This document shows positions 43,015 through 51,374 of a stretch of 64,000 nt of DNA, piece after piece. Each line of letters begins with the position of its first letter. The stretch's first letter is position 1. Source of the DNA: Spirochaetia bacterium (GTDB taxonomy: Bacteria > Spirochaetota > Spirochaetia > SZUA-6 > Bin103); the NCBI GenBank assembly GCA_965203905.1, contig CBDBDQ010000005.1:7680001-7744000 (forward strand), read 5' to 3'. A program made the position numbers and the translations under genes. Under the pieces are notes generated by a model that was not told the DNA's origin, searched no databases, and saw only the letters and a program-made list of their open reading frames with translations.

Positions 43015-43239
43015 ATGAGTACAACTCGATGGTCGCTGGTGGTCTCCGAAGCAACTGACCGCGCCCTGCGTACCTTCCTTGCGAGTCGGGGACTGAAGAA
43101 AGGGCATCTCTCGCAGTTTGTTGAGGACGCCGTGAGAGAAAAGCTGTTCGATCTGACCGTCGCAGAAGTCAAAGAGCGAAACGCGGGACAAACCGATGCT
43201 GTCATGCAGGCCGTCGAGGAGGCTCTCGAGCGAGCCTGA
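43015..43239 (+). CDS. Ribbon-helix-helix antitoxin
   Basis: RWSLVVS..TDRALR.FL....KKG.LSQFVEDAV; TATGAT just before the ATG. Confidence 0.75.
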   Translation: MSTTRWSLVVSEATDRALRTFLASRGLKKGHLSQFVEDAVREKLFDLTVAEVKERNAGQTDAVMQAVEEALERA

Positions 43240-43242
43240 GGC

Positions 43243-43652
43243 GTGCGTGTTGTGCTCGACACCGGAATCCTCGTTGCCGCTCTGATCACACGGACACACC
43301 CCCAGACCAACTGTACCAGCTGTGGCGCAAGCGACGGTTCACGCTGATCACGTCCGAGCCGCAGTTAAGCGAGTTCCGGCGCGTCACTCGTTACCCGAAG
43401 CTGCGTCGGTTTCTGAAGGCTCACGAAGCGGGGACCCTCCTGCGCGGGGTGCGTGCGCGAGCTGTTGTTGTCCCAGGGCTGCCACAGATCGATCTTGTCG
43501 ACGACCCCGACGACAATCTCGTGCTTGCCACCGCTCTCGCCGGCGAGGCTGACTATCTGGTCACCGGAGATCGGCGTCACCTACTGCACCTGAAGAAGGT
43601 GCAGCACACGAGGATCTTGACGGCACGTGAGCTCACAGAGTTGCTCAACTGA
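43243..43652 (+). CDS. PIN-family toxin; frameshift near 43295
   Basis: MRVVLDTGIL, DPDDNLVLATA, ADYLVTGD. Confidence 0.8.
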
Positions 43653-43860
43653 CCGTTCCCGACGAACGGGACCGGCCGATGGCCATACCAAGTTCTCGAT
43701 CCCATCCCTGGTGTTGCGTTGCGCGCCCCGAGCCGAAGTTCGTTGCAGGATAGATGGCACGGAGTGTGGGCGGTGGGTGTTCCGTTCCGAGCGTGTCCCT
43801 GGAGCGGAACGCGGGAACGGCGGAACGGTGGGCGGATGAGAGCGAGTAGGCCGTTGGGAG

Positions 43861-44802
43861 TCAGGCCGGCAGGTGCCAGCCGGCGGGACCGCGGACGGCG
43901 AGACCGCGTTGCTGGAGAGATTGGAGGGCGAGACCGAGACGAGCGTTGTTGACGCGCAGGCGTTGGCGGAGGGCGGTCCTGGAGAGCGGCTGGCCGGCGG
44001 TGCGAAGAGCGGCGCGCACGGCCTCGGTGAGCGGGGGCGGCGGAGCGGCGGCACCGTCGACGATCAGCGAGAGGGGCTGGTGGGCGCCGCCTGAGAGGCG
44101 CAGCAGGAGGGGATCGGGAGCGGGAGCGGCGCGGTGTTCGACGGTGAGTTGGAGCCGGTCGTCGGCCCGCCGCACGAGGTAGCATGCGGAGTCGGTCCAG
44201 GCATGCAGATCGGAGGAGCCGCGCAGGGACTGGCCGAGATTGCGGCGCGAACGCTTGGCCATGTGGTGGACGAGGACGACCGCGAGCTGATGGCGGCGAT
44301 TGATGGCGCGCAGAAAGCCGAGCAGGGAAGAAATGTCTGAAGCGCTGTTTTCGTCGAGGGAATGAAGGCGGACCAGGGGGTCCAGCAACAGCAGCGCCGG
44401 GCGGATGCGTTGCACGGTGTGGTCGAGAGCGAGCCGGTCGCGCTCGGTGTCGAGGCGCAGCCGGTCGGCCGTGACGACGTGCAGGTCGAGGCGGGACAGG
44501 TCGAGGCCGCGGTGGCGGCACAGGTGGGCGACGCGGTCGCGGACGCGCGGCAGAGCATCCTCGGCAAGATAGACCAGGGCGGGTCCGGTGGCGTCGACCG
44601 GGAACCGCCCGAGGGCGGGAGTGCCGGACGCGACCGAGACGGCGAGATCAAGACCGAGCCATGACTTGCCAACCTTGGGGCTGCCGCCAATCACGCCGAC
44701 AGCGGCGGTGGTCCAGAGGTCGCGCACCAGCCACTGGGGAGTGTCTGGTTGGGGATCGATGGCATGGACCGGAACGGTGGGCAGGGGACCGGTCATGGCC
44801 AC
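43861..44802 (-). CDS. RecA/RepA-like AAA_25 ATPase (helicase-like) with probable C-terminal HTH
   Basis: WLVRDLW, GSPKVGKS, YLAED, LLDPL, VHH..K, RGSS. Confidence 0.8.
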   Translation of the reverse strand: MAMTGPLPTVPVHAIDPQPDTPQWLVRDLWTTAAVGVIGGSPKVGKSWLGLDLAVSVASGTPALGRFPVDATGPALVYLAEDALPRVRDRVAHLCRHRGLDLSRLDLHVVTADRLRLDTERDRLALDHTVQRIRPALLLLDPLVRLHSLDENSASDISSLLGFLRAINRRHQLAVVLVHHMAKRSRRNLGQSLRGSSDLHAWTDSACYLVRRADDRLQLTVEHRAAPAPDPLLLRLSGGAHQPLSLIVDGAAAPPPPLTEAVRAALRTAGQPLSRTALRQRLRVNNARLGLALQSLQQRGLAVRGPAGWHLPA

Positions 44803-45596
44803 AGCGACTTGCGAGCGGCGATCACGTCGCCGGCGCTGACGGTGGAGTGGGACGACTTGGCGGCGCGTTGCAGGGCGGCCAGGGCGAGGCGGTCGATGGC
44901 GCGCAGGTTGCCGCGGCTCATTTCGAAGATGGTTTGCTGAGCGTCGCCGTCGAAGGGATTGGTGCGCGCGCCGGCGAGGGTGCAGCGATGTTCGAGGTAG
45001 GCGCAGGTTTCGTCACGGGACAGGAGGCGCAACTCGGCGTAATGCGCGAGGCGGTGCGCGATGGCGGCTTGCTCGGGACGCCGCAGGAGCTGTCTGAGAG
45101 CAGGCTGGCCGGCGAGCACGAGGGACACGACGAGGCGACTGTCCATTTCGAAGTTCGTGAGGACGCGCAACATGGCCAACGATTCGGGGCGCAGGTCATG
45201 TGCTTCGTCGAGCAGGATAACCGGGCGCATGCCGTCGCTGGCGGTGTGATCGAAAGCGCCCTGCAACTTGCGCACGAGGGCGGGATAGATGCCGGTGGGA
45301 GAGAGGCCGCAGGCGACGGCGATCTCCTTGCACAGGTCACGCTTGGAGAGGCCGGTGACCTTGACGTAGTGGACGCTGAAGCGCACCTCCGGGAGAGCGG
45401 CGACGAGCATGCGCAAGGCGACGGTCTTGCCGGTGCCGGCGGGAGCGATGAGTGCGGCGCTCATGCGCTCCTGGACGGCCTCGGTGAGAGCGGCGGCGAC
45501 CTGGGCCTGAGGTTCGAGCGGGAAGCACTCGCGCACCTGCAACTCGCGGGTAAAGGGGGTCTTGCGAAAGCCCAGTGTGCTGAGGTCGTGGCTCAT
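44793..45596 (-). CDS. ExeA/GspA-like AAA+ ATPase (transposition regulator-like)
   Basis: GFRKTPF, APAGTGKT, LLDEAH, LAGQPAL, SRGNLRAID. Confidence 0.85.
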   Translation of the reverse strand: MSHDLSTLGFRKTPFTRELQVRECFPLEPQAQVAAALTEAVQERMSAALIAPAGTGKTVALRMLVAALPEVRFSVHYVKVTGLSKRDLCKEIAVACGLSPTGIYPALVRKLQGAFDHTASDGMRPVILLDEAHDLRPESLAMLRVLTNFEMDSRLVVSLVLAGQPALRQLLRRPEQAAIAHRLAHYAELRLLSRDETCAYLEHRCTLAGARTNPFDGDAQQTIFEMSRGNLRAIDRLALAALQRAAKSSHSTVSAGDVIAARKSLWP

Positions 45597-46990
45597 GGCT
45601 GCTGCTCCTGGTCGTGGCGGTCGTCGTGCGGGTCGCTATAGCCGCCGTCGGGATCGACCAGCGGGCGGGTGTCGTTGGCGTAGGCGATGCCGGCCGCGGT
45701 GGCGGGGAGTTCCTCGCCGTCGTCGTCGTCAGTCGGTTGCGGCGCGCTGCCGGAGCCGCGCGGTGAGGTCGCGTTGGCATGCGGGTCCACCTCGGCCAGT
45801 TCGATCATGCGGCCCTGGTGCAGCACCCACAGGCGCCCGTCGAGCACGTGGCGCGCCACCTCGACCCAACTGCGGGCGCTGCGGAGCGGTGCTTCCCACA
45901 ACCGACCGCCGGCCTTGATGACGTGATCGTTGGAGACCTTGTGCAGGGCGCGCACCACGAAGCGGCGGTACAGGTCGGCGTCGTCGGTCGGGAAGCGCAG
46001 CTCGCGTCCCTGCTCCCAGCGCTGGCGCGGGGTGATCTCCTTGCCCAGAGTCTCGTGCGGGGTGTCGTTGTAGCGGTTCAGGAAGTGGCGCAGGCGCAGT
46101 GTGAGTGCCTGGCAGGCGGGGTCCACGTCGGCGGCGCCGTCGAGGGCACGCAGCGCCTAGTCGTAAGCGGTGCGGTGGAAGCGCTCGACGGCGCCGTGGC
46201 CCTCGGGATACCTGCTGGCGCCGTGGATCAGCAAGGCGCCCAGGCCGCCCTGGACCACCGCCAGGGTGTCCTTGGAGATGAAGCCCGGTCCCTTGTCCAG
46301 GTAGTACAGGTCCGCGCTACCGTGCCGCATGACCGCTTCGTGGAGGCCGCGCAGGAACAGTTCGCTGGACTCCGCGGTGCCCACCACCACCTCGAGGCCG
46401 TAGCGGGTGGCATCGTCGAGGAAGAACAGCGCGACCCGGCGCAGCCGCGCCGCGCCGGCGCGGAAGTGCTTGCCGTCGGCGAGCACGCACTGCATACGCT
46501 CGGCGTAGCGCCAGCGCCGGGTGTCGCCGTCACGCTTGTGCGGTCGCACGCGCGTCGGCAAACCCATCCGCCGGCAGGCGCGCCACACCGTGGTGCGATC
46601 GATCTTCAGGTCGACCGGGATGATGCCGCGCTCGCGCGCCCGGCGCACCATCTCCGGTACCGAGGCGCGCGCATCACGCTGCTTCTCGGTGCGCACAAAG
46701 GTGACCAGCTTGGAGCTCAGCGCCAGGGAAGTCGCGATGCGGGTGCGCGGCTGCGGCTCCAGGGCAGCCAGGCCGCCGGCGGCCCAGGCAGCACGCCAGC
46801 GTTGCAAGGTGCGTACGCTGACCCGCAGCGGGCGACCGTTCAGGTCCACGCGGTCGCGACCGGCAACGTGCCGTACCGCGGCTCCCGCGGGGTATCCGCG
46901 CAACACCAGGGCCTCCACCTCGGCGACTGCCAGGGAGCGCACCAGCGCGGTCGCCGAGGCCGGTAACGGGGGACGCGTCGAGTCATTCAT
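45593..46990 (-). pseudogene. Mu/rve-type DDE transposase (465 codons) interrupted by an in-frame TAG at 46157-46159
   Basis: HTH SVRTLQRW, LADG, LDDATR, YLDKGPGF, GHGAVERFHRT; the same frame continues to YNDTPHETL..TP. Confidence 0.85.
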
Positions 46991-47844
46991 GCGCCTACCG
47001 TAGCGCCGCCCGAGGCTGCTCGAACGGGCGCTTTCGTGGCCGGCGGCGCCCGTCCCCGAGGGCTGCCGGCCATCTCCTTCTCCCGCGCTTCGGAACGACC
47101 CGTCGCGGTAACGATCCAGCTCTTGCCGGCCTGCTCCCAGCGCGCCACCAGCCGCGGGCGCGGTGGCCCCCACAGATCGCTGACCGCACCCGCCGCTCCC
47201 ATGCGGTCCCCCAGCGTGGCGCTCACCGCCAGCGCCACCAGCACCGCCACGATCGCGGCTCCGCGGCTCTGCCAACTGCGCTCCCAACTGCGTGCTCCCG
47301 CGAGCACCGTCATGGTCGCCACTCCCAGCCGCGTCGCGATCTGCTCTCGCTCCCGCTCCTCCAGTTCCGGGCTCACCCCGGTCAGCCGTCCGGCCATCTC
47401 CAACCGCCGCTCCTGGGTACGCCGGCATGGCGTACTCGACGACCGCCACCAGTGCAACTCCGATGGCCACCCCTTCTCCTGCTCCGCATCCTGCGCTGCC
47501 CTGAACAGCGTCGCCTGCCACTGCGGTTGGCTGCTGTCAGCGTCGAGCAACAGCTCGCCGTCTGTGCTGTACCGCACCACAGCCACCCGTCCGTACGGGT
47601 AATGTCCCGGCGGATACAGCGTGTAGCGCCGCCCCCCATGCTCCCGGCACCCCACCACCGCTATCGGGTAGCACGGTCCGCTCTTGCGCTCTCGGTAATG
47701 ATCGACGAAGATGGCACACGTCTGCTCCCCCGTGGCGTAGACGCATCGTGTCGGCAGCACGGCGTGTAAGGCTCCGTCCTTATCCGTCTCGTAGCTCGTC
47801 GTCGCGTACGGGAGCGCGTGTGCCTCGGTTCCACCCTCGGACAC
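46987..47844 (-). CDS. Cys/His-containing hypothetical protein, first gene of the transposon operon (weakly DUF6431-like)
   Basis: C-x8-C...CREH...YTLYPPGHYPYGR; ATGA overlap with the transposase start. Confidence 0.6.
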   Translation of the reverse strand: MSEGGTEAHALPYATTSYETDKDGALHAVLPTRCVYATGEQTCAIFVDHYRERKSGPCYPIAVVGCREHGGRRYTLYPPGHYPYGRVAVVRYSTDGELLLDADSSQPQWQATLFRAAQDAEQEKGWPSELHWWRSSSTPCRRTQERRLEMAGRLTGVSPELEEREREQIATRLGVATMTVLAGARSWERSWQSRGAAIVAVLVALAVSATLGDRMGAAGAVSDLWGPPRPRLVARWEQAGKSWIVTATGRSEAREKEMAGSPRGRAPPATKAPVRAASGGATVGA

Positions 47845-47895
47845 TCGCTGCCTCTCGTGTGCCTCGACTCGCGGTCACCCGCCCGCCGAGGCTGC

Positions 47896-47933
47896 AAAAA
47901 AGTGAAGCCCGCAGCATTCACCTGCTGCGGGCT
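47896..47933 (-). terminator. Hairpin plus T6; insertion target of the IS110
   Basis: Minus strand AGCCCGCAGCA-GGTGAA-TGCTGCGGGCT TCAC TTTTTT. Confidence 0.7.
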
Positions 47934-47949
47934 CCTTAGAAACACATAG

Positions 47950-49335
47950 TCAGGCGGCGTGAGGTACGAGATCGAAGCCGAGAGAACGGGCTTGGTTGCG
48001 CAGGTTGCGCTCACGGCGTTTGCGATCCTGGCAGTGCTGTTGCGAGAGCAGGTCGTCGTCGTAGAGGACATGGTGCGTGACGAGGTGGTAGATGATGCGA
48101 GCCATCTTGTGGGCGGTGGCGGTGATTGCCTGTGGAGTGCCGAGGCGGGCACGCTTGCGGCGAAAGTGATCTCCGAGCGAGGAGTGGCTCCGATACAGCG
48201 TTTGGGTTGCGATGCGGAGCGCCTGAGCGGCGCGATTGGTGCCGGGTCCGGTCTTCGAACTGATGATCTTGCCGCCGGTGATCTTGTTGTGGGGGCAGAG
48301 ATTCAACCAGGAAGCAAAGTGCGCGGCGTCGGGAAAGCGTGACAGATCGGCGCCGATTTCGGTAAACAAGGTAAGGGCAGTGCTCTCGCCGATGCCGGGA
48401 ATAAGGGTCAGGTCGGTACCGAACAGGCGCGTGAGGTGGCGGCTCAGCACGAACCGTTCAGACGTACTCGGGGAGCTGGGAGCCTCACCTTCGCCGGGAA
48501 CCGCGCTGCGGTCGGCGCCGGAGGGAACGTCAGGCGGCACATTCGGGTCCGTCTCCAGGGTGCCGATCATGGTCTTGATCTGCTGATCGCAGGTATCGAT
48601 GAGCTGCTGGTAGTGCGCATAGGTCAGCCGCGCTTGCTGCAGGGTAAACAGATGCTCGGGACGCCAGTCACCTTGCAGTGCCTTGATCAACGTCTCGCGG
48701 CTGGCTCTGATCCCGCGATGGGCCAGCGCGGCCAATCGTGCTGGAGCCCGTTCCCCGCCCAGGATGGCGTCGGTGATGGCCATGCCGGTCACCCCGGTCA
48801 GATCAGAGATCGCATGGTGCAAATGGATGTTCATCTGATCGTAGGATTTCTGCATATGCAGCACGCTCCGCGATGCCGCCTTCACCAGGGTGTCGCGATG
48901 GCGCAGCAGCGTGCGCAGCGCGCACACCTCGTCGGGCGGGCGGAAGGAGCCGCTCAGCAGTCCCACCGAATGTAGATGACGCAGCCATTCGCAGTCGGCT
49001 ACGTCGCTCTTGCGACCGGGCACCGAGCGCACATGACGGGCGTTGACCAGTACCACGTCGAAGCCACGAGCTTCCAGGATCTGGAGCACGGGTATCCAGT
49101 AGACGCCGGTAGACTCCATAGCGACCGTGGTTACCCGGCACTCGCTGAGCCAGTCGGCCAACGCGTGCAGGTCGCTGGTGAACGTGGGGAAATTACGGAT
49201 CGGCACCGCGGCGCGATCTTCGCGTACTGCGGCGTACACCGCGGTGGCGCCTATATCCACACCTGCGGCGTCGGGATGGACCTGGTTCGGCTGCGCCGGG
49301 CGTTTGCCGTTGCGTCGCCTCTTACGTCGTGCCAT
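47950..49335 (-). CDS. IS110 family recombinase/transposase
   Basis: DEDD motifs GVDIG, AMESTGVYW, KSDVAD; Tnp20 domain IPGIG, EIG.DLSRF, A.AHKMARIIY. Confidence 0.93.
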   Translation of the reverse strand: MARRKRRRNGKRPAQPNQVHPDAAGVDIGATAVYAAVREDRAAVPIRNFPTFTSDLHALADWLSECRVTTVAMESTGVYWIPVLQILEARGFDVVLVNARHVRSVPGRKSDVADCEWLRHLHSVGLLSGSFRPPDEVCALRTLLRHRDTLVKAASRSVLHMQKSYDQMNIHLHHAISDLTGVTGMAITDAILGGERAPARLAALAHRGIRASRETLIKALQGDWRPEHLFTLQQARLTYAHYQQLIDTCDQQIKTMIGTLETDPNVPPDVPSGADRSAVPGEGEAPSSPSTSERFVLSRHLTRLFGTDLTLIPGIGESTALTLFTEIGADLSRFPDAAHFASWLNLCPHNKITGGKIISSKTGPGTNRAAQALRIATQTLYRSHSSLGDHFRRKRARLGTPQAITATAHKMARIIYHLVTHHVLYDDDLLSQQHCQDRKRRERNLRNQARSLGFDLVPHAA

Positions 49336-49602
49336 GAAAAGCCTCCACTATGCACCAAGTGCAGCGGCCGAGGCGTGAACAAGAGGCATTCTCCTTACCG
49401 GGATGGCCGTCGCCGACAGTGCCGGTGCCGACCTCACCAATGACTACGCCACCTGCCTCGGGACCAAGCTTCACAACGGGTTCGCCACAGCGGGCGGTCA
49501 CACCAATGTTCGCGCGGCCTACTTTCGCGCCCCACTCGGTGAAATATCGCCCCCAGTATATCTCGCTCCCGTTTCTTCCATGATCACTCCGGACCGTCAG
49601 GC
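49336..49602 (-). ncRNA. Candidate IS110 bridge RNA
   Basis: Contains TGTGAAGC (target match) and TAAGGAG (donor match); 5' hairpin CCGGGCC-TGAC-GGTCCGG. Confidence 0.7.
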
Positions 49603-49910
49603 CCGGTAGGATAGCTTCACACTTTACGCCCCCGTCGCTTCTCCGCCTACGCCATCGTCACCGCAACCGGTACTCCCTCACCCCGCCCTTGGGCGCGCAA
49701 CGCAATACCTGGCCTTACACCAGGCGGCGACTTGGCCCAACTCGAACGCCCCGTGCATCGGCTTCGCTGACCGGCCAGGTCACGCCCATCCTGCGCACGC
49801 CGCTCAGAAAGTGAGCCATTTGCCGCTTAGAAATTGACCCACCCCCGGCAGGCGAACCCTCCGGGTGATAGTTTGGTGTTGCTGAACATCAAACTGAACC
49901 GGAGAGAAGG

Positions 49911-51374
49911 ATGCTGGGGATGGATCGCGTATACGTTATCAGACACAAGTGGCACCAAGAAGGGCTGTCGATCCGCCAGATAGCCCGTGACCTGGAGATA
50001 AGCCGGAACACGGTGCGCAAGTACATCGACGATGCCGGCGGGCCGCGGCAGCCGGCGCGGTCGAAGCGGGCGCGGCCGGTGCTGGAGAAGGTACACGAGC
50101 GGATCGACGAGATCCTGGAGGAGTGGAGTACGCGCACCACCGACAAGCAGCGCGTCACCGGGACGCTGGTGCATCGCCAACTCCGCGAGGAGGGGTACGA
50201 GGTGGGCAGCACGACGGTGCGCTCCTACTTGGCGGAGCGGCGCCGGAAGCGGCAGGAAGTGTTTGTGCCGCTGATCTGGCGTCCCGGCGACGCGGCGCAG
50301 GTGGACTTCTTCGAGGTCACCGTCGAGGTCGCGGGGGAGCGGCAGAAGGCGTGGTTGTTCGTGGTGCACCTGATGTACTCGGGGCGCGACTTCGCGTGGC
50401 TGTACGAGCGCTGCAACCAGATCGCGTTTCTGGACGGCCATGTGCGCGCCTTCGAGCACTTCGGCGGGGTGTCGGTGCGCTGCATCTACGACAATCTCAA
50501 GGCGGCGGTGAAACGGAGGCTGGGGGTGGAACGGGAACTGAGCGCTCGGTTCCTGGCGTTGTGCTCGCACTACCTGTTCGAGCCGTGCTTCGCGCGCCCA
50601 GGCGAGGGGCATGACAAGGGCGGGGTGGAAGCGCGCGGCAAGAACGTGCGCCTGCAGCACCTGACGCCGATTCCCGGTGGCCCATCGTTGGATGCGATCG
50701 CGACCGAACTGCTGGAGCACCTGGACGCGGCCTGCGACACGCGCGCTGACCAGGACGGTCGCACCGTGGCACAGCGTTTCAGCGAGGAGCGCCCCTTGTT
50801 GCGCCCGCTGCCGCAGCGATCATTCGAGGCCCGCCAGGTCGAGCCGGTGGCGGTGAGCCGCCAGGCGCTGGTGCGGGTGGACGGCGCGCGCTACTCGGTG
50901 CCCAGTCACTGGAGCGGCAGCCAGGCGACCGCCTACGTGGGGGTGGCGGACATCATCCTGGAGTGGCGCCAGGAACGGATCACGGTCGCCAAGCAGCCGC
51001 GCGGCACGCGCGCGGTCCAGTATCGGCACTATCTGGACGAGTTGGCGAAGAAACCGCAGGCGGTGCGCCAGGTGGCACCCGAGCTGATGGAGGAGCTTGG
51101 TACTCCCTACGTGCGGCTGTGGAAGCTGCTGTCTTCCCGCTACGGCGAGCTGGATGCCGCGCGGGTCGTCGCCAAGCTGGTCGGCGCCATCGTCGACCAT
51201 GGCGAGCAACGGATCAGTGAGATCCTCGAGCAGATACTCGCCGCGCCACCGCCCGTGGCGACCGAGGACAACCCGCCGCCGGCCACGGTGCCGGTGCCGG
51301 TCGCCCTGCAGCGCTATCAGGTGGAGTCGACTCCTGCATCGGCCTACAACGTCCTGATGGTGAGGGAGGACTGA
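49911..51374 (+). CDS. istA: IS21 transposase IstA
   Basis: [42 protein letters not shown]. Confidence 0.93.

What the first reader, a model, noticed from the sequence alone, without database searches (positions are those of the whole stretch)
43712..49707. Four-gene Mu-like transposon carrying a RepA/AAA_25 helicase-like ATPase: possibly undescribed family
Seen: 17-bp TIRs (TGT.../TAT...), CCTGG 5-bp duplication, and a subterminal GTTGC-N6-GATGGC motif at both ends (43742-43758; 49651-49667 reversed). Four overlapping genes encode a Cys/His protein, a DDE transposase, an ExeA-like ATPase and an AAA_25 ATPase. Without the IS110 the element is about 4.3 kb. Established: Mu, Tn7 and Tn5053 pair a DDE transposase with an AAA+ regulator and make 5-bp duplications; Tn7-like elements add a Zn-binding TniQ. 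Inference: the first gene may be a target or assembly factor, and the helicase-like gene may give the element its own replication step. I know no named family with this gene set.
Basis: partly seen in the sequence, partly recalled or inferred. Interest (0 to 1): 0.8.

Follow-up and report, generated by a model that had tools for sequence, protein, structure and literature searches.

The report
Transposon family carrying its own helicase
This is a real jumping gene, widespread in uncultured bacteria, that carries next to its Mu-type cut-and-join enzyme and ATPase helper a helicase-like motor of the kind plasmids use to start DNA copying, so it may bring its own replication starter.

Summary
Window 43712-49707 is a transposon with 17-bp inverted ends (16 of 17) and a 5-bp CCTGG duplication. 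Contigs from two public runs join 43706 to 49708, which is the exact empty site. An IS110-family element (about 47934-49616) and an in-frame TAG in the transposase disable this copy. Three intact 4.3-kb copies lie elsewhere in the genome.

The four translationally coupled genes are:
- a Cys/His protein with no Pfam family;
- a Mu/TnsB-type DDE transposase;
- an ExeA-like AAA_22 ATPase;
- an AAA_25 ATPase with a winged-helix tail, whose only solved relative is the RSF1010 RepA helicase.

AAA_25 is core, not cargo. It follows AAA_22 in 39 of 41 informative metagenome loci and has the lowest dN/dS of the four genes. One exception carries a DnaG-type primase in that slot. A second transposon family acquired the same AAA_25 gene together with its downstream GGAAC-repeat hairpin.

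My best reading (inferred, not shown) is a Mu/Tn7-superfamily element whose helicase helps replicate the strand-transfer intermediate. The closest named relative is the three-gene Tn6049 type. I rate it a new variant of a known kind. ISfinder and TnCentral could not be consulted.

The parts
43707..43711 (.). Target-site duplication, left copy (CCTGG)
   Evidence: The empty-site contigs in runs X1 and X4 skip 6001 nt, with 5 letters shared between the two sides.
43712..43728 (+). Terminal inverted repeat at the AAA_25-side end, TGTTGCGTTGCGCGCCC (starts TG)
   Evidence: This end is conserved in 20 of 20 aligned elements.
43742..43758 (+). Subterminal repeat GTTGCAGGATAGATGGC, a candidate second transposase-binding site
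   Evidence: Consensus GTTGCA.G...G.TG.CA, conserved at 80% or more across 20 elements. Binding is inferred.
43779..43828 (-). Conserved hairpin of GGAAC/GTTCC repeats (CCGTTCCG...CGGAACGGAAC) between the AAA_25 stop codon and the end. Candidate cis site for the AAA_25 protein.
- Folds at -15.8 kcal/mol, z -3.4.
- The 11-mer is found downstream of AAA_25 in 25 of 30 metagenome loci.
- It moved together with AAA_25 into a second transposon family.
- It is absent from the primase variant L092.
Function is inferred.
43861..44802 (-). Gene 4: AAA_25 (RepA-like) ATPase with a C-terminal winged-helix region, 313 aa
   Evidence: - Pfam PF13481, E 1e-33.
- Best PDB match by profile is RSF1010 RepA, E 3.2e-11.
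- K46, S47, D141, D150, E151, H179, H180 and R194 are invariant in 20 sequences.
- dN/dS 0.10-0.11.
44793..45596 (-). Gene 3: ExeA-like AAA_22 ATPase, 267 aa, the presumed MuB/TnsC/TniB-type partner of the transposase
   Evidence: - Pfam PF13401, E 1.3e-21.
- TIGR03015, E 5.6e-31, below its cutoff.
- Only weak PDB matches to TnsC, E 0.05.
45593..46990 (-). Gene 2: Mu/TnsB-type DDE transposase, 465 codons, broken here by an in-frame TAG at 46157-46159
   Evidence: -. The intact copy L004 has Q at that codon.
- Family members match rve_3 in 21 of 22, rve in 13 of 22 and Mu-transpos_C_2 in 7 of 22.
- Best PDB match by profile is ShCAST TnsB, E 9.9e-10, over residues 222-456.
46987..47844 (-). Gene 1: 285-aa protein with a conserved Cys/His set (C43, C66, H69 invariant; C34 invariant in 19 sequences). 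N-terminal beta-rich domain plus a helical domain. No described family.
   Evidence: - No Pfam or NCBIfam hit, and 0 of 66 family members hit a relevant Pfam family.
- 909 cluster representatives at E up to 0.001.
- Alignments.
- Models with pLDDT 78.8 and 79.2.
47904..47933 (.). Conserved hairpin GAAGCCCGC...GCGGGCTTC upstream of gene 1. In this copy its 3' arm is cut by the IS110 element and resumes at 49617.
   Evidence: It is conserved in most of the 20 aligned elements.
47934..49616 (-). IS110-family insertion sequence (transposase at 47950-49335), a later insertion that is not part of the transposon
   Evidence: - Pfam DEDD_Tnp_IS110, E 4e-21, and Transposase_20, E 4.4e-12.
- Boundaries.
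- Contigs of runs X3 and X4 join 47930 to 49614, skipping 1683 nt.
49651..49667 (-). Subterminal repeat at the gene-1 side (GTTGCGGTGACGATGGC on the minus strand)
   Evidence: Consensus GGTTGCA.....GATG.CGT.
49691..49707 (-). Terminal inverted repeat at the gene-1-side end (TATTGCGTTGCGCGCCC on the minus strand)
   Evidence: Most relatives in other phyla have TGTT here.
49708..49712 (.). Target-site duplication, right copy (CCTGG)

Best explanation
What it is (shown, about 0.95). Window 43712-49707 is one disabled copy of a 4.3-kb transposon of the Mu/Tn7/Tn5053 superfamily. It carries a nonsense codon in the transposase and an IS110 insertion. The family has TG-type 17-bp inverted ends, one conserved subterminal repeat at each end, 5-bp target duplications and a single operon of four overlapping genes: a Cys/His protein, a MuA/TnsB-type DDE transposase, an ExeA-like AAA_22 ATPase, and a RepA-like AAA_25 ATPase with a winged-helix tail.

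How it most likely works (inferred).
1. The transposase binds the terminal and subterminal GTTGC repeats, nicks the 3' ends and joins them to a 5-bp staggered target.
2. The AAA_22 ATPase plays the MuB/TnsC/TniB role of capturing the target and activating the transposase.
3. The Cys/His protein is a zinc-binding accessory or DNA-binding factor. It occupies the position that DUF6431 proteins hold in three-gene relatives.
4. The AAA_25 protein is a core part of this clade. With its GGAAC-repeat site next to one end it acts as a helicase at the forked strand-transfer intermediate. The element is then copied, or its gaps filled, without depending fully on the host restart primosome.

The gene and its site form a portable module that has moved between transposon families.
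For: Mobility
- Four copies in the genome.
- Perfect 5-bp duplications at 7 of 16 elements examined, from several lineages.
- Exact empty site in contigs of two runs from two studies.
- Paralogous empty site for copy L004.

Transposase type
- rve_3 in 21 of 22 members, Mu-transpos_C_2 in 7 of 22.
- Best solved relative is TnsB, E 9.9e-10.

ATPase: AAA_22, E 1.3e-21.

AAA_25 is core
- It follows AAA_22 in 39 of 41 metagenome loci that extend 300 nt or more beyond AAA_22.
- It is present in loci labelled Gemmatimonadales, Chloroflexota and Poribacteria.
- It has the lowest dN/dS of the four genes, 0.10-0.11.
- Its ATPase motifs are invariant.

Link to replication
- Its only solved relative is the RSF1010 RepA helicase, E 3.2e-11.
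- Phage relatives are annotated RepA or DNA primase/helicase.
- In L092 the fourth slot, inside the same ends, holds a DnaG-type primase: Zn_ribbon_DnaG E 1.8e-10 and Toprim_2 E 7.7e-9.
- The element has no TnsA-like nuclease or resolvase gene.

Gene-plus-site module
- In a second family in genome G020 the transposase and AAA_22 are 27-28% identical to ours, but AAA_25 is 78% identical.
- The CCGTTCC...CGGAACGGAAC hairpin came with it, while that element keeps its own different ends.
- The 11-mer lies downstream of AAA_25 in 25 of 30 loci.
Against: - No experiment or read evidence shows replication of the element, cointegrates or helicase activity.
- Matched 5-bp duplications and an exact empty site are what simple insertion gives. 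They do not require a replicative pathway.
- Three-gene relatives lack AAA_25, so the core machinery can work without it. These are L119 and L120, the Burkholderia and Cupriavidus elements, and L015 with a 102-aa fourth ORF.
- The primase variant is a single locus.
- Similarity to RepA covers only the ATPase core. Some phage relatives are annotated 'DNA recombinase', and there is a faint RadA hit at E 0.016.
- The hairpin could be only a transcript end. It is missing in 5 of 30 loci and in L013. Its arms do not vary, so there is no covariation evidence either way.
- AAA_22 matches TnsC only weakly, E 0.05.
- The role of gene 1 is unsupported by any similarity.
Confidence: 0.5

Rival explanations
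1. The AAA_25 protein is a RecA/RadA-like recombination or repair motor. After strand transfer it would promote branch migration, gap repair or homologous resolution of cointegrates, standing in for the missing resolvase. It would not drive replication.
For: - AAA_25 belongs to the RecA-fold group. There is a faint RadA/Sms hit (TIGR00416, E 0.016) and a weak RadB hit in the PDB (E 0.7).
- Several phage relatives are annotated 'DNA recombinase'.
- The element has no resolvase gene.
- Many copies have matched duplications, as expected if intermediates are repaired or resolved cleanly.
Against: - The best and only significant solved relative is a replicative helicase, RepA, at E 3.2e-11.
- The natural replacement in L092 is a primase, not a recombination protein.
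- A conserved cis site next to the gene suits a site-loaded protein better than a general recombinase.
Confidence: 0.2
2. The AAA_25 protein with its winged helix is a regulator or target chooser. It would bind the GGAAC repeats or a target structure to control when, where or in which orientation the element inserts, or to repress the operon. It would have no part in DNA synthesis.
For: - It has a C-terminal winged-helix region.
- Conserved repeats lie next to one end only, which makes the ends asymmetric.
- Tn7-like elements use dedicated target selectors (established knowledge, recalled).
Against: - The ATPase motifs are invariant and under the strongest constraint of the four genes, which is more than a simple repressor needs.
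- The module works alongside a transposase and ATPase only 27-28% identical to ours, which argues against tight protein-protein coupling to the transposition machinery.
- A primase takes its place in L092.
- The 5-bp targets show no clear common site.
Confidence: 0.15
3. AAA_25 is a passenger gene with no role in transposition. It would be retained because it benefits the host or another mobile element.
For: - Related three-gene elements transpose without it.
- The gene has been exchanged between transposon families, as cargo often is.
Against: - It is present in 39 of 41 informative loci across phyla, at a fixed position, overlapping the AAA_22 stop codon.
- These 4.3-kb elements carry no other cargo.
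- It has the lowest dN/dS of the four genes.
- It has a conserved cis site.
Confidence: 0.07

Closest known systems
Tn6049-type three-gene elements. Examples: Cupriavidus metallidurans (transposase plus gspA/ExeA-like ATPase), and look-alikes on Burkholderia sp. RPE67 plasmid p2 and a Streptomyces plasmid.
   Same: - Same order of the first three genes: a small Cys-containing protein (DUF6431 in Burkholderia and Streptomyces), an rve transposase with a Mu C-terminal domain, then an AAA_22 ATPase.
- A related family in genome G020 also has TG...CA ends and a 5-bp duplication.
- Tn6049 is described as 3.5 kb, with 12 copies that all carry gspA (PMC2864759, passages read).
   Different: - They have no AAA_25 gene. 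A 71-78-aa ORF follows the ATPase.
- The transposase is only about 26% identical to ours (E 2e-7).
- Gene 1 of our family shows no significant similarity to DUF6431: hhalign probability 0.2%, although the Cys motifs were the part aligned.
- That locus L122 is Tn6049 itself is my inference, from the record length of 171,459 bp and the paper's tables. It is not named in the record.
Tn7 and CRISPR-associated Tn7-like transposons (TnsA, TnsB, TnsC, TniQ/TnsD)
   Same: - The closest solved relative of the transposase is TnsB (E 9.9e-10).
- An AAA+ partner is encoded downstream.
- It makes a 5-bp duplication, has TG ends and has asymmetric ends with subterminal repeats.
   Different: - No TnsA-like endonuclease gene.
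- No TniQ: gene 1 has no PF06527 hit and no fold match.
- AAA_22 matches TnsC only at E 0.05.
- No cargo and no attachment site.
- AAA_25 has no counterpart in Tn7.
Tn5053/Tn402 (TniA, TniB, TniQ, TniR) and Tn552
   Same: - A Mu-type DDE transposase is followed by an AAA+ ATPase.
- They make a 5-bp duplication (Tn5053; recalled).
- They transpose replicatively (recalled).
   Different: - No serine resolvase or res site in our element.
- No TniQ.
- A RepA-like ATPase is present instead.
Phage Mu (MuA and MuB)
   Same: - The transposase has a Mu C-terminal domain.
- It has an ATPase partner, a 5-bp duplication and TG...CA ends.
- There is no resolvase.
- In Mu the forked strand-transfer intermediate must be handed to a replisome (established knowledge, recalled).
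   Different: - Our element is not a phage. The gene-1 family was not found in the viral contig collection.
- Mu relies on host restart proteins (recalled), whereas this element encodes a helicase-like protein of its own.
RSF1010 RepA, the hexameric plasmid helicase (PDB 1g8y), and phage RepA or primase-helicase proteins
   Same: - AAA_25 domain, E 1e-33.
- RepA is the only significant solved relative (E 1.2e-6 with the single sequence, 3.2e-11 with the profile).
- Phage relatives are 29-37% identical.
   Different: - Ours carries an extra C-terminal winged-helix region.
- It sits in a transposon operon, not a replicon.
- No RepB/RepC-type partners are present.
- No plasmid record matched at E up to 1e-8.

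Membership tests
Mu/Tn7/Tn5053 superfamily (MuA/TnsB/TniA-type transposase with an AAA+ partner) | DDE (RNase H-fold) transposase with a Mu-type C-terminal domain | tested here: met
   - rve_3 in 21 of 22 family members, rve in 13 of 22, Mu-transpos_C_2 in 7 of 22.
- The profile matches TnsB at E 9.9e-10 over residues 222-456.
- The window copy alone gives only HTH hits.
Mu/Tn7/Tn5053 superfamily | AAA+ ATPase gene directly downstream of the transposase | tested here: met
   AAA_22, E 1.3e-21, overlapping the transposase stop codon. That it is equivalent to MuB/TnsC is not shown: TnsC matches only at E 0.05.
Mu/Tn7/Tn5053 superfamily | 5-bp target-site duplication and TG...CA termini | tested here: met
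   - Perfect duplication at 7 of 16 elements.
- Empty site that skips the element plus 5 nt.
- The AAA_25-side end starts TG in 20 of 20 elements. The other end starts TA in this lineage and TG or TC in others.
Tn7-like transposons | TnsA endonuclease and a TniQ/TnsD target selector | tested here: not met
   The four genes are all accounted for and none is TnsA-like. Gene 1 has no Pfam hit, and 0 of 66 family members hit TniQ. Fold searches were blank, which is inconclusive for a remote TniQ likeness.
Tn5053/Tn402 and Tn552 | Serine resolvase (TniR or BinL) with a res site | tested here: not met
   No resolvase gene lies between the ends, either in the window copy or in intact copy L004.
IS481 family | A single transposase gene that passes the NCBIfam IS481 model | tested here: not met
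   NF033577 scores 94.9 bits against a cutoff of 224, and the element has four genes.
IS21 family | IstA with an IstB-type (IstB_IS21) ATPase | tested here: not met
   No IstB_IS21 hit among the 9 Pfam families matched by the ATPase.
Tn6049-type three-gene elements (DUF6431-like protein, rve transposase, AAA_22) | Same three genes in the same order, with detectable homology | tested here: inconclusive
   - The gene order is the same.
- The transposase is 26% identical, E 2e-7.
- Gene 1 against a DUF6431 alignment gives hhalign probability 0.2%.
- The extra AAA_25 gene sets this clade apart.
AAA_25 / RepA-like helicases | PF13481 domain above threshold with intact Walker A and B motifs | tested here: met
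   117.1 bits against a cutoff of 27. K46/S47, D141 and D150/E151 are invariant in 20 sequences. RepA matches at E 3.2e-11.
AAA_25 / RepA-like helicases | Hexameric ring and DNA unwinding | not testable with these tools
   This needs biochemistry. No fold or oligomer job was run for this protein.

The most novel reading that the evidence does not exclude
This is a replicative transposon that brings its own replication starter. A RepA-like helicase (in one relative a DnaG-type primase) is loaded at a GGAAC-repeat site beside one transposon end. It turns the strand-transfer fork into a replication fork without the host restart primosome. The gene and its site form a portable module that different Mu-type transposon families have captured independently.
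Probability: 0.35. Interest if true: 0.85.

Novelty: new variant of a known kind. Interest (0 to 1): 0.7.

Why it matters
- Mu-type transposons are the model for how a transposition complex hands DNA to a replisome, and the known ones depend on host factors for that step. A widespread family that keeps a helicase, or in one case a primase, as a core gene with its own cis site would be a natural system for studying this hand-over with element-encoded parts.
- It would add a fourth functional class to the transposase, ATPase and selector scheme of this superfamily.
- It shows that such a module can be swapped between families.
- Gene 1 defines a large protein family (909 cluster representatives) with no description.
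- The elements are compact (4.3 kb), carry no cargo and occur across phyla, which makes them tractable and possibly useful as tools.

Tried and rejected
Fold and family searches for gene 1
- The whole model and the N-terminal domain alone gave no match: Foldseek PDB best E 0.4 and 0.18; VIA wide best Z 4.4 and 3.8, with the NrdR zinc ribbon at Z 2.9.
- The protein atlas gave no usable hit.
- These blanks show neither a new fold nor absence of a TniQ likeness.
- hhalign of the gene-1 family against single DUF6431-like proteins and against a 24-sequence DUF6431 alignment gave probabilities of 0.2-0.25%, although the Cys motifs were the part aligned. Homology is not shown.

Complex prediction
- Complex prediction with gene 1 as partner against AAA_22 and AAA_25 returned no answer: score 0.00, controls not run. 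This is no evidence either way.

Other blanks
- Rfam on the whole element found nothing relevant; the one hit was a chance miRNA match at E 0.29.
- The sigma-70 promoter scan of intact copy L004 found 0 sites. The terminator scan found 3 against 1.4 expected, none at the conserved hairpins.
- The viral contig scan with the gene-1 alignment found no relatives.
- The plasmid collection gave no match for gene 1 and none for AAA_25 at E up to 1e-8.
- The phylum-level genome sample found the gene-1 family in 0 of 400 other genomes.
- No RNA holder was listed among the sequencing runs, so nothing can be said about expression.

Analyses left open
- I tried to read replicative history from mismatched flanks of the copies in genome G001. 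L008 and L017 share CCAGC on opposite ends, but homologous recombination between copies gives the same pattern, so I dropped it.
- TIR detection for the three-gene relatives L116, L117, L119 and L120 gave no convincing ends.

Literature
- Seven searches found no description of a Mu-type transposon with an AAA_25 or RepA-like gene.
- Passages were read only in PMC2864759 and bioRxiv 10.1101/2024.11.13.623437. All other papers were seen as search listings only.
- The 2009 paper that first described Tn6049 is not in the library, and supplements were not opened. Either may define the Tn6049 genes and ends more exactly.
- ISfinder and TnCentral could not be consulted.

Full report
**Observation.**
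- TGTTGCGTTGCGCGCCC at 43712-43728 matches the reverse complement of 49691-49707 at 16 of 17 positions. CCTGG flanks both ends.
- GTTGC-N6-GATGGC is at 43742-43758 and, reversed, at 49651-49667.
- Four minus-strand genes overlap by ATGA or by 10 nt.
- An IS110-family element (Pfam E 4e-21 and 4.4e-12) sits at about 47934-49616.
- The transposase frame is interrupted by a single in-frame TAG at 46157-46159.

**It is a mobile element.**
- The window's own genome (8.0 Mb) holds three more copies at 88% nucleotide identity. They lack the IS110 and have all four genes open.
- I examined 16 elements from this genome, a related genome and other phyla. Seven have a perfect 5-bp duplication (window, L004, L002, L022, L060, L077, L084), two match at 4 of 5, and seven do not match. 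Most of the seven non-matching elements come from one multi-copy genome or from short metagenome contigs, where recombination or chimeric assembly is possible.
- The strongest evidence comes from public runs. Contigs of runs X1 and X4, from two studies, join window 43706 to 49708. They skip 6001 nt, which is the 5996-nt element plus one 5-nt repeat, with 5 letters fitting either side. X1 may be the sample the genome was assembled from. X4 belongs to another study.
- The same table shows the transposon without the IS110: joints 47930 to 49614, skipping 1683 nt.
- A paralogous uninterrupted site for copy L004 carries the 5-mer once.

**Genes.**
- *Gene 2* is a Mu-type transposase. Among 22 family members, 21 match rve_3, 13 match rve and 7 match Mu-transpos_C_2. 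The family profile's best solved relative is ShCAST TnsB (E 9.9e-10), covering the second half of the catalytic core and the C-terminal domain. NCBIfam's IS481 model scores far below its cutoff.
- *Gene 3* is an ExeA-like AAA_22 ATPase. Its sequence likeness to TnsC is weak (E 0.05).
- *Gene 4* is an AAA_25 ATPase (E 1e-33). Its only significant solved relative is the RSF1010 RepA helicase (E 3.2e-11). Its Walker A and B and further motifs are invariant in 20 sequences, and a winged-helix-like tail follows.
- *Gene 1* has no Pfam or NCBIfam family, yet it belongs to a large family of 909 cluster representatives at E up to 0.001. C43, C66 and H69 are invariant. C34 is invariant in the 19-sequence alignment. 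The models are fairly confident (pLDDT 78.8 and 79.2), but nothing in the PDB resembles them.

**Is AAA_25 cargo?** No.
- In genome contigs, all four genes occur in order in loci labelled Gemmatimonadales, Chloroflexota and Poribacteria, and in a genome of the window's own genus.
- Of 80 metagenome loci found with gene 1, 41 extend 300 nt or more beyond AAA_22, and 39 of those have AAA_25 directly downstream. These 80 were the best of 468 candidates, so they lean toward closer relatives.
- Exception L068 has an unrelated IS inserted in AAA_22.
- Exception L092 has a DnaG-type primase (Zn_ribbon_DnaG E 1.8e-10, Toprim_2 E 7.7e-9) in the fourth slot, inside ends of the same type.
- A more distant locus, L015, has a 102-aa ORF there.
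- Between the copies in this genome, AAA_25 has the lowest dN/dS, at 0.10-0.11. The values are 0.15-0.23 for AAA_22, 0.24-0.35 for the transposase and 0.29-0.40 for gene 1.

**Cis elements.** I aligned both ends of 20 elements.
- Both ends share the terminal 17-mer and one subterminal GTTGCA-type repeat.
- The gene-1 side has a conserved GAAGCCCGC...GCGGGCTTC hairpin. This is the one the IS110 hit in the window.
- The AAA_25 side has a hairpin built of GTTCC/GGAAC repeats at 43779-43828, folding at -15.8 kcal/mol with z -3.4.
- The 11-mer CGGAACGGAAC, allowing one mismatch, lies downstream of AAA_25 in 25 of 30 loci with enough sequence. It occurs twice in the whole 64-kb window. It is absent from the primase variant and from L013.
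- The hairpin arms do not vary, so the conservation is of sequence and no covariation test is possible.

**A module swap.** Genome G020, from the same taxonomic family, carries several copies of a different transposon.
- Its ends are TGTCAGTGCCCGCGATCTGGT and its duplication is GCAGG.
- Its genes are a DUF6431-like protein (E 0.0035, below cutoff), an rve/Mu-transpos_C transposase, AAA_22 and AAA_25.
- Its transposase and AAA_22 are 27-28% identical to ours, yet its AAA_25 is 78% identical.
- The GGAAC hairpin lies behind that gene, while the terminal repeats are its own.
- So the gene and its neighbouring site moved together between families. Simple adjacency could explain the co-transfer, but it fits a gene-plus-site unit.

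**Mechanism.**
- Shown: the anatomy, mobility, 5-bp duplication, protein families, core status of AAA_25 and the swap.
- Inferred from established knowledge of Mu, Tn7 and Tn5053 (recalled): the transposase nicks 3' ends and joins them to a 5-bp staggered target, and the AAA_22 protein captures the target and activates the transposase. With no TnsA-like nuclease the product is a forked intermediate. With no resolvase the element depends on replication or repair, and on host recombination.
- My best reading is that the RepA-like protein, loaded at the GGAAC repeats, unwinds DNA at that fork.
- In favour: the primase in the same slot in L092, and the replication-type phage relatives annotated RepA or DNA primase/helicase.
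- Against: matched duplications and an exact empty site do not need replication. Three-gene relatives work without AAA_25. The primase case is a single locus. Some phage relatives are labelled recombinase.
- I put the whole statement at 0.5, with the identity part near 0.95.

**Comparison with known elements.**
- The nearest annotated relatives are three-gene elements: a small protein (DUF6431), an rve/Mu-transpos_C transposase and an AAA_22 ATPase, sometimes followed by a tiny ORF. Examples lie on Burkholderia, Cupriavidus and Streptomyces plasmids.
- The Cupriavidus one is, by inference, Tn6049. That element is described as 3.5 kb, with 12 copies that all carry a gspA ATPase gene (PMC2864759, passages).
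- Tn7-like, Tn5053/Tn402, Tn552, IS21 and IS481 each fail a defining feature (see Membership tests).
- No paper among seven searches describes a Mu-type transposon with an AAA_25 gene.

**Verdict.** This is a genuine, widespread but patchily distributed transposon family. The gene-1 family was found in 0 of 400 other genomes sampled from the phylum, while near-identical DNA occurs in runs from 10 studies, several labelled sponge metagenomes. I rate it a new variant of a known kind, of clear interest to people who study transposition. Its proposed replication role still needs testing.

Noticed in passing
window 47934-49616: The IS110-family element landed in the 3' arm of the transposon's conserved hairpin. 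The genome holds at least five full-length relatives at 76% identity plus fragments. One of them lies about 475 nt beyond transposon copy L003.
   Followed up: partly
window 49911-51374: A 487-aa ORF about 200 nt to the right of the element has rve and Mu-transpos_C_2 domains and an N-terminal HTH. It is another DDE transposase, IS21-like by my reading (not tested). The element sits in a patch of mobile DNA.
   Followed up: partly
window 43015-43652; L004 1400-1500: The left flank holds a ribbon-helix-helix gene (RHH_6, E 3.8e-24) and the end of a PIN-domain gene. Copy L004 is inserted in a short multi-copy sequence that I read, without a test, as also ending a PIN-type gene. Two insertions next to toxin-antitoxin-like genes may be chance.
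   Followed up: partly
L092 3283-4152: A relative of the element carries a DnaG-type primase (zinc ribbon plus Toprim) in place of AAA_25, inside ends at 78 and 4291.
   Followed up: yes
L121 3256-7416 and L118: A second four-gene transposon family in genome G020 has different ends and a GCAGG duplication. Its AAA_25 is 78% identical to the window family's. Copy L118 carries a 1.9-kb insertion.
   Followed up: yes
L007 and L010 (genome G001): In two copies the 5-mer found at the AAA_25-side flank recurs at the other side, but 3 or 4 nt away from the terminus: GCTAA + AAA and CATGG + CCGC. This could mean imprecise end processing or carried-over donor flank. It is unexplained.
   Followed up: no
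L063 4608-8123: One metagenome copy has its AAA_25 gene split by an insertion of about 3.5 kb. I did not examine its content.
   Followed up: no
L084 11087 and 11195: This element has two copies of the AAA_25-side terminal repeat 108 nt apart. The inner one pairs with a GCGGG duplication.
   Followed up: no
L119, L120, L116 (genomes G009, G012, G001): A three-gene sister family occurs in up to 10 copies per genome: a Cys-rich protein of about 207 aa with no Pfam family, a transposase about 30% identical to ours, and AAA_22. I could not define its ends.
   Followed up: partly
whole genome (G000): The genome is 8.0 Mb. The sampled genomes listed from its phylum are mostly 1-3 Mb. A genome contig found with the same element is labelled Spirochaetia. 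Holders of near-identical DNA include runs labelled sponge metagenome.
   Followed up: no
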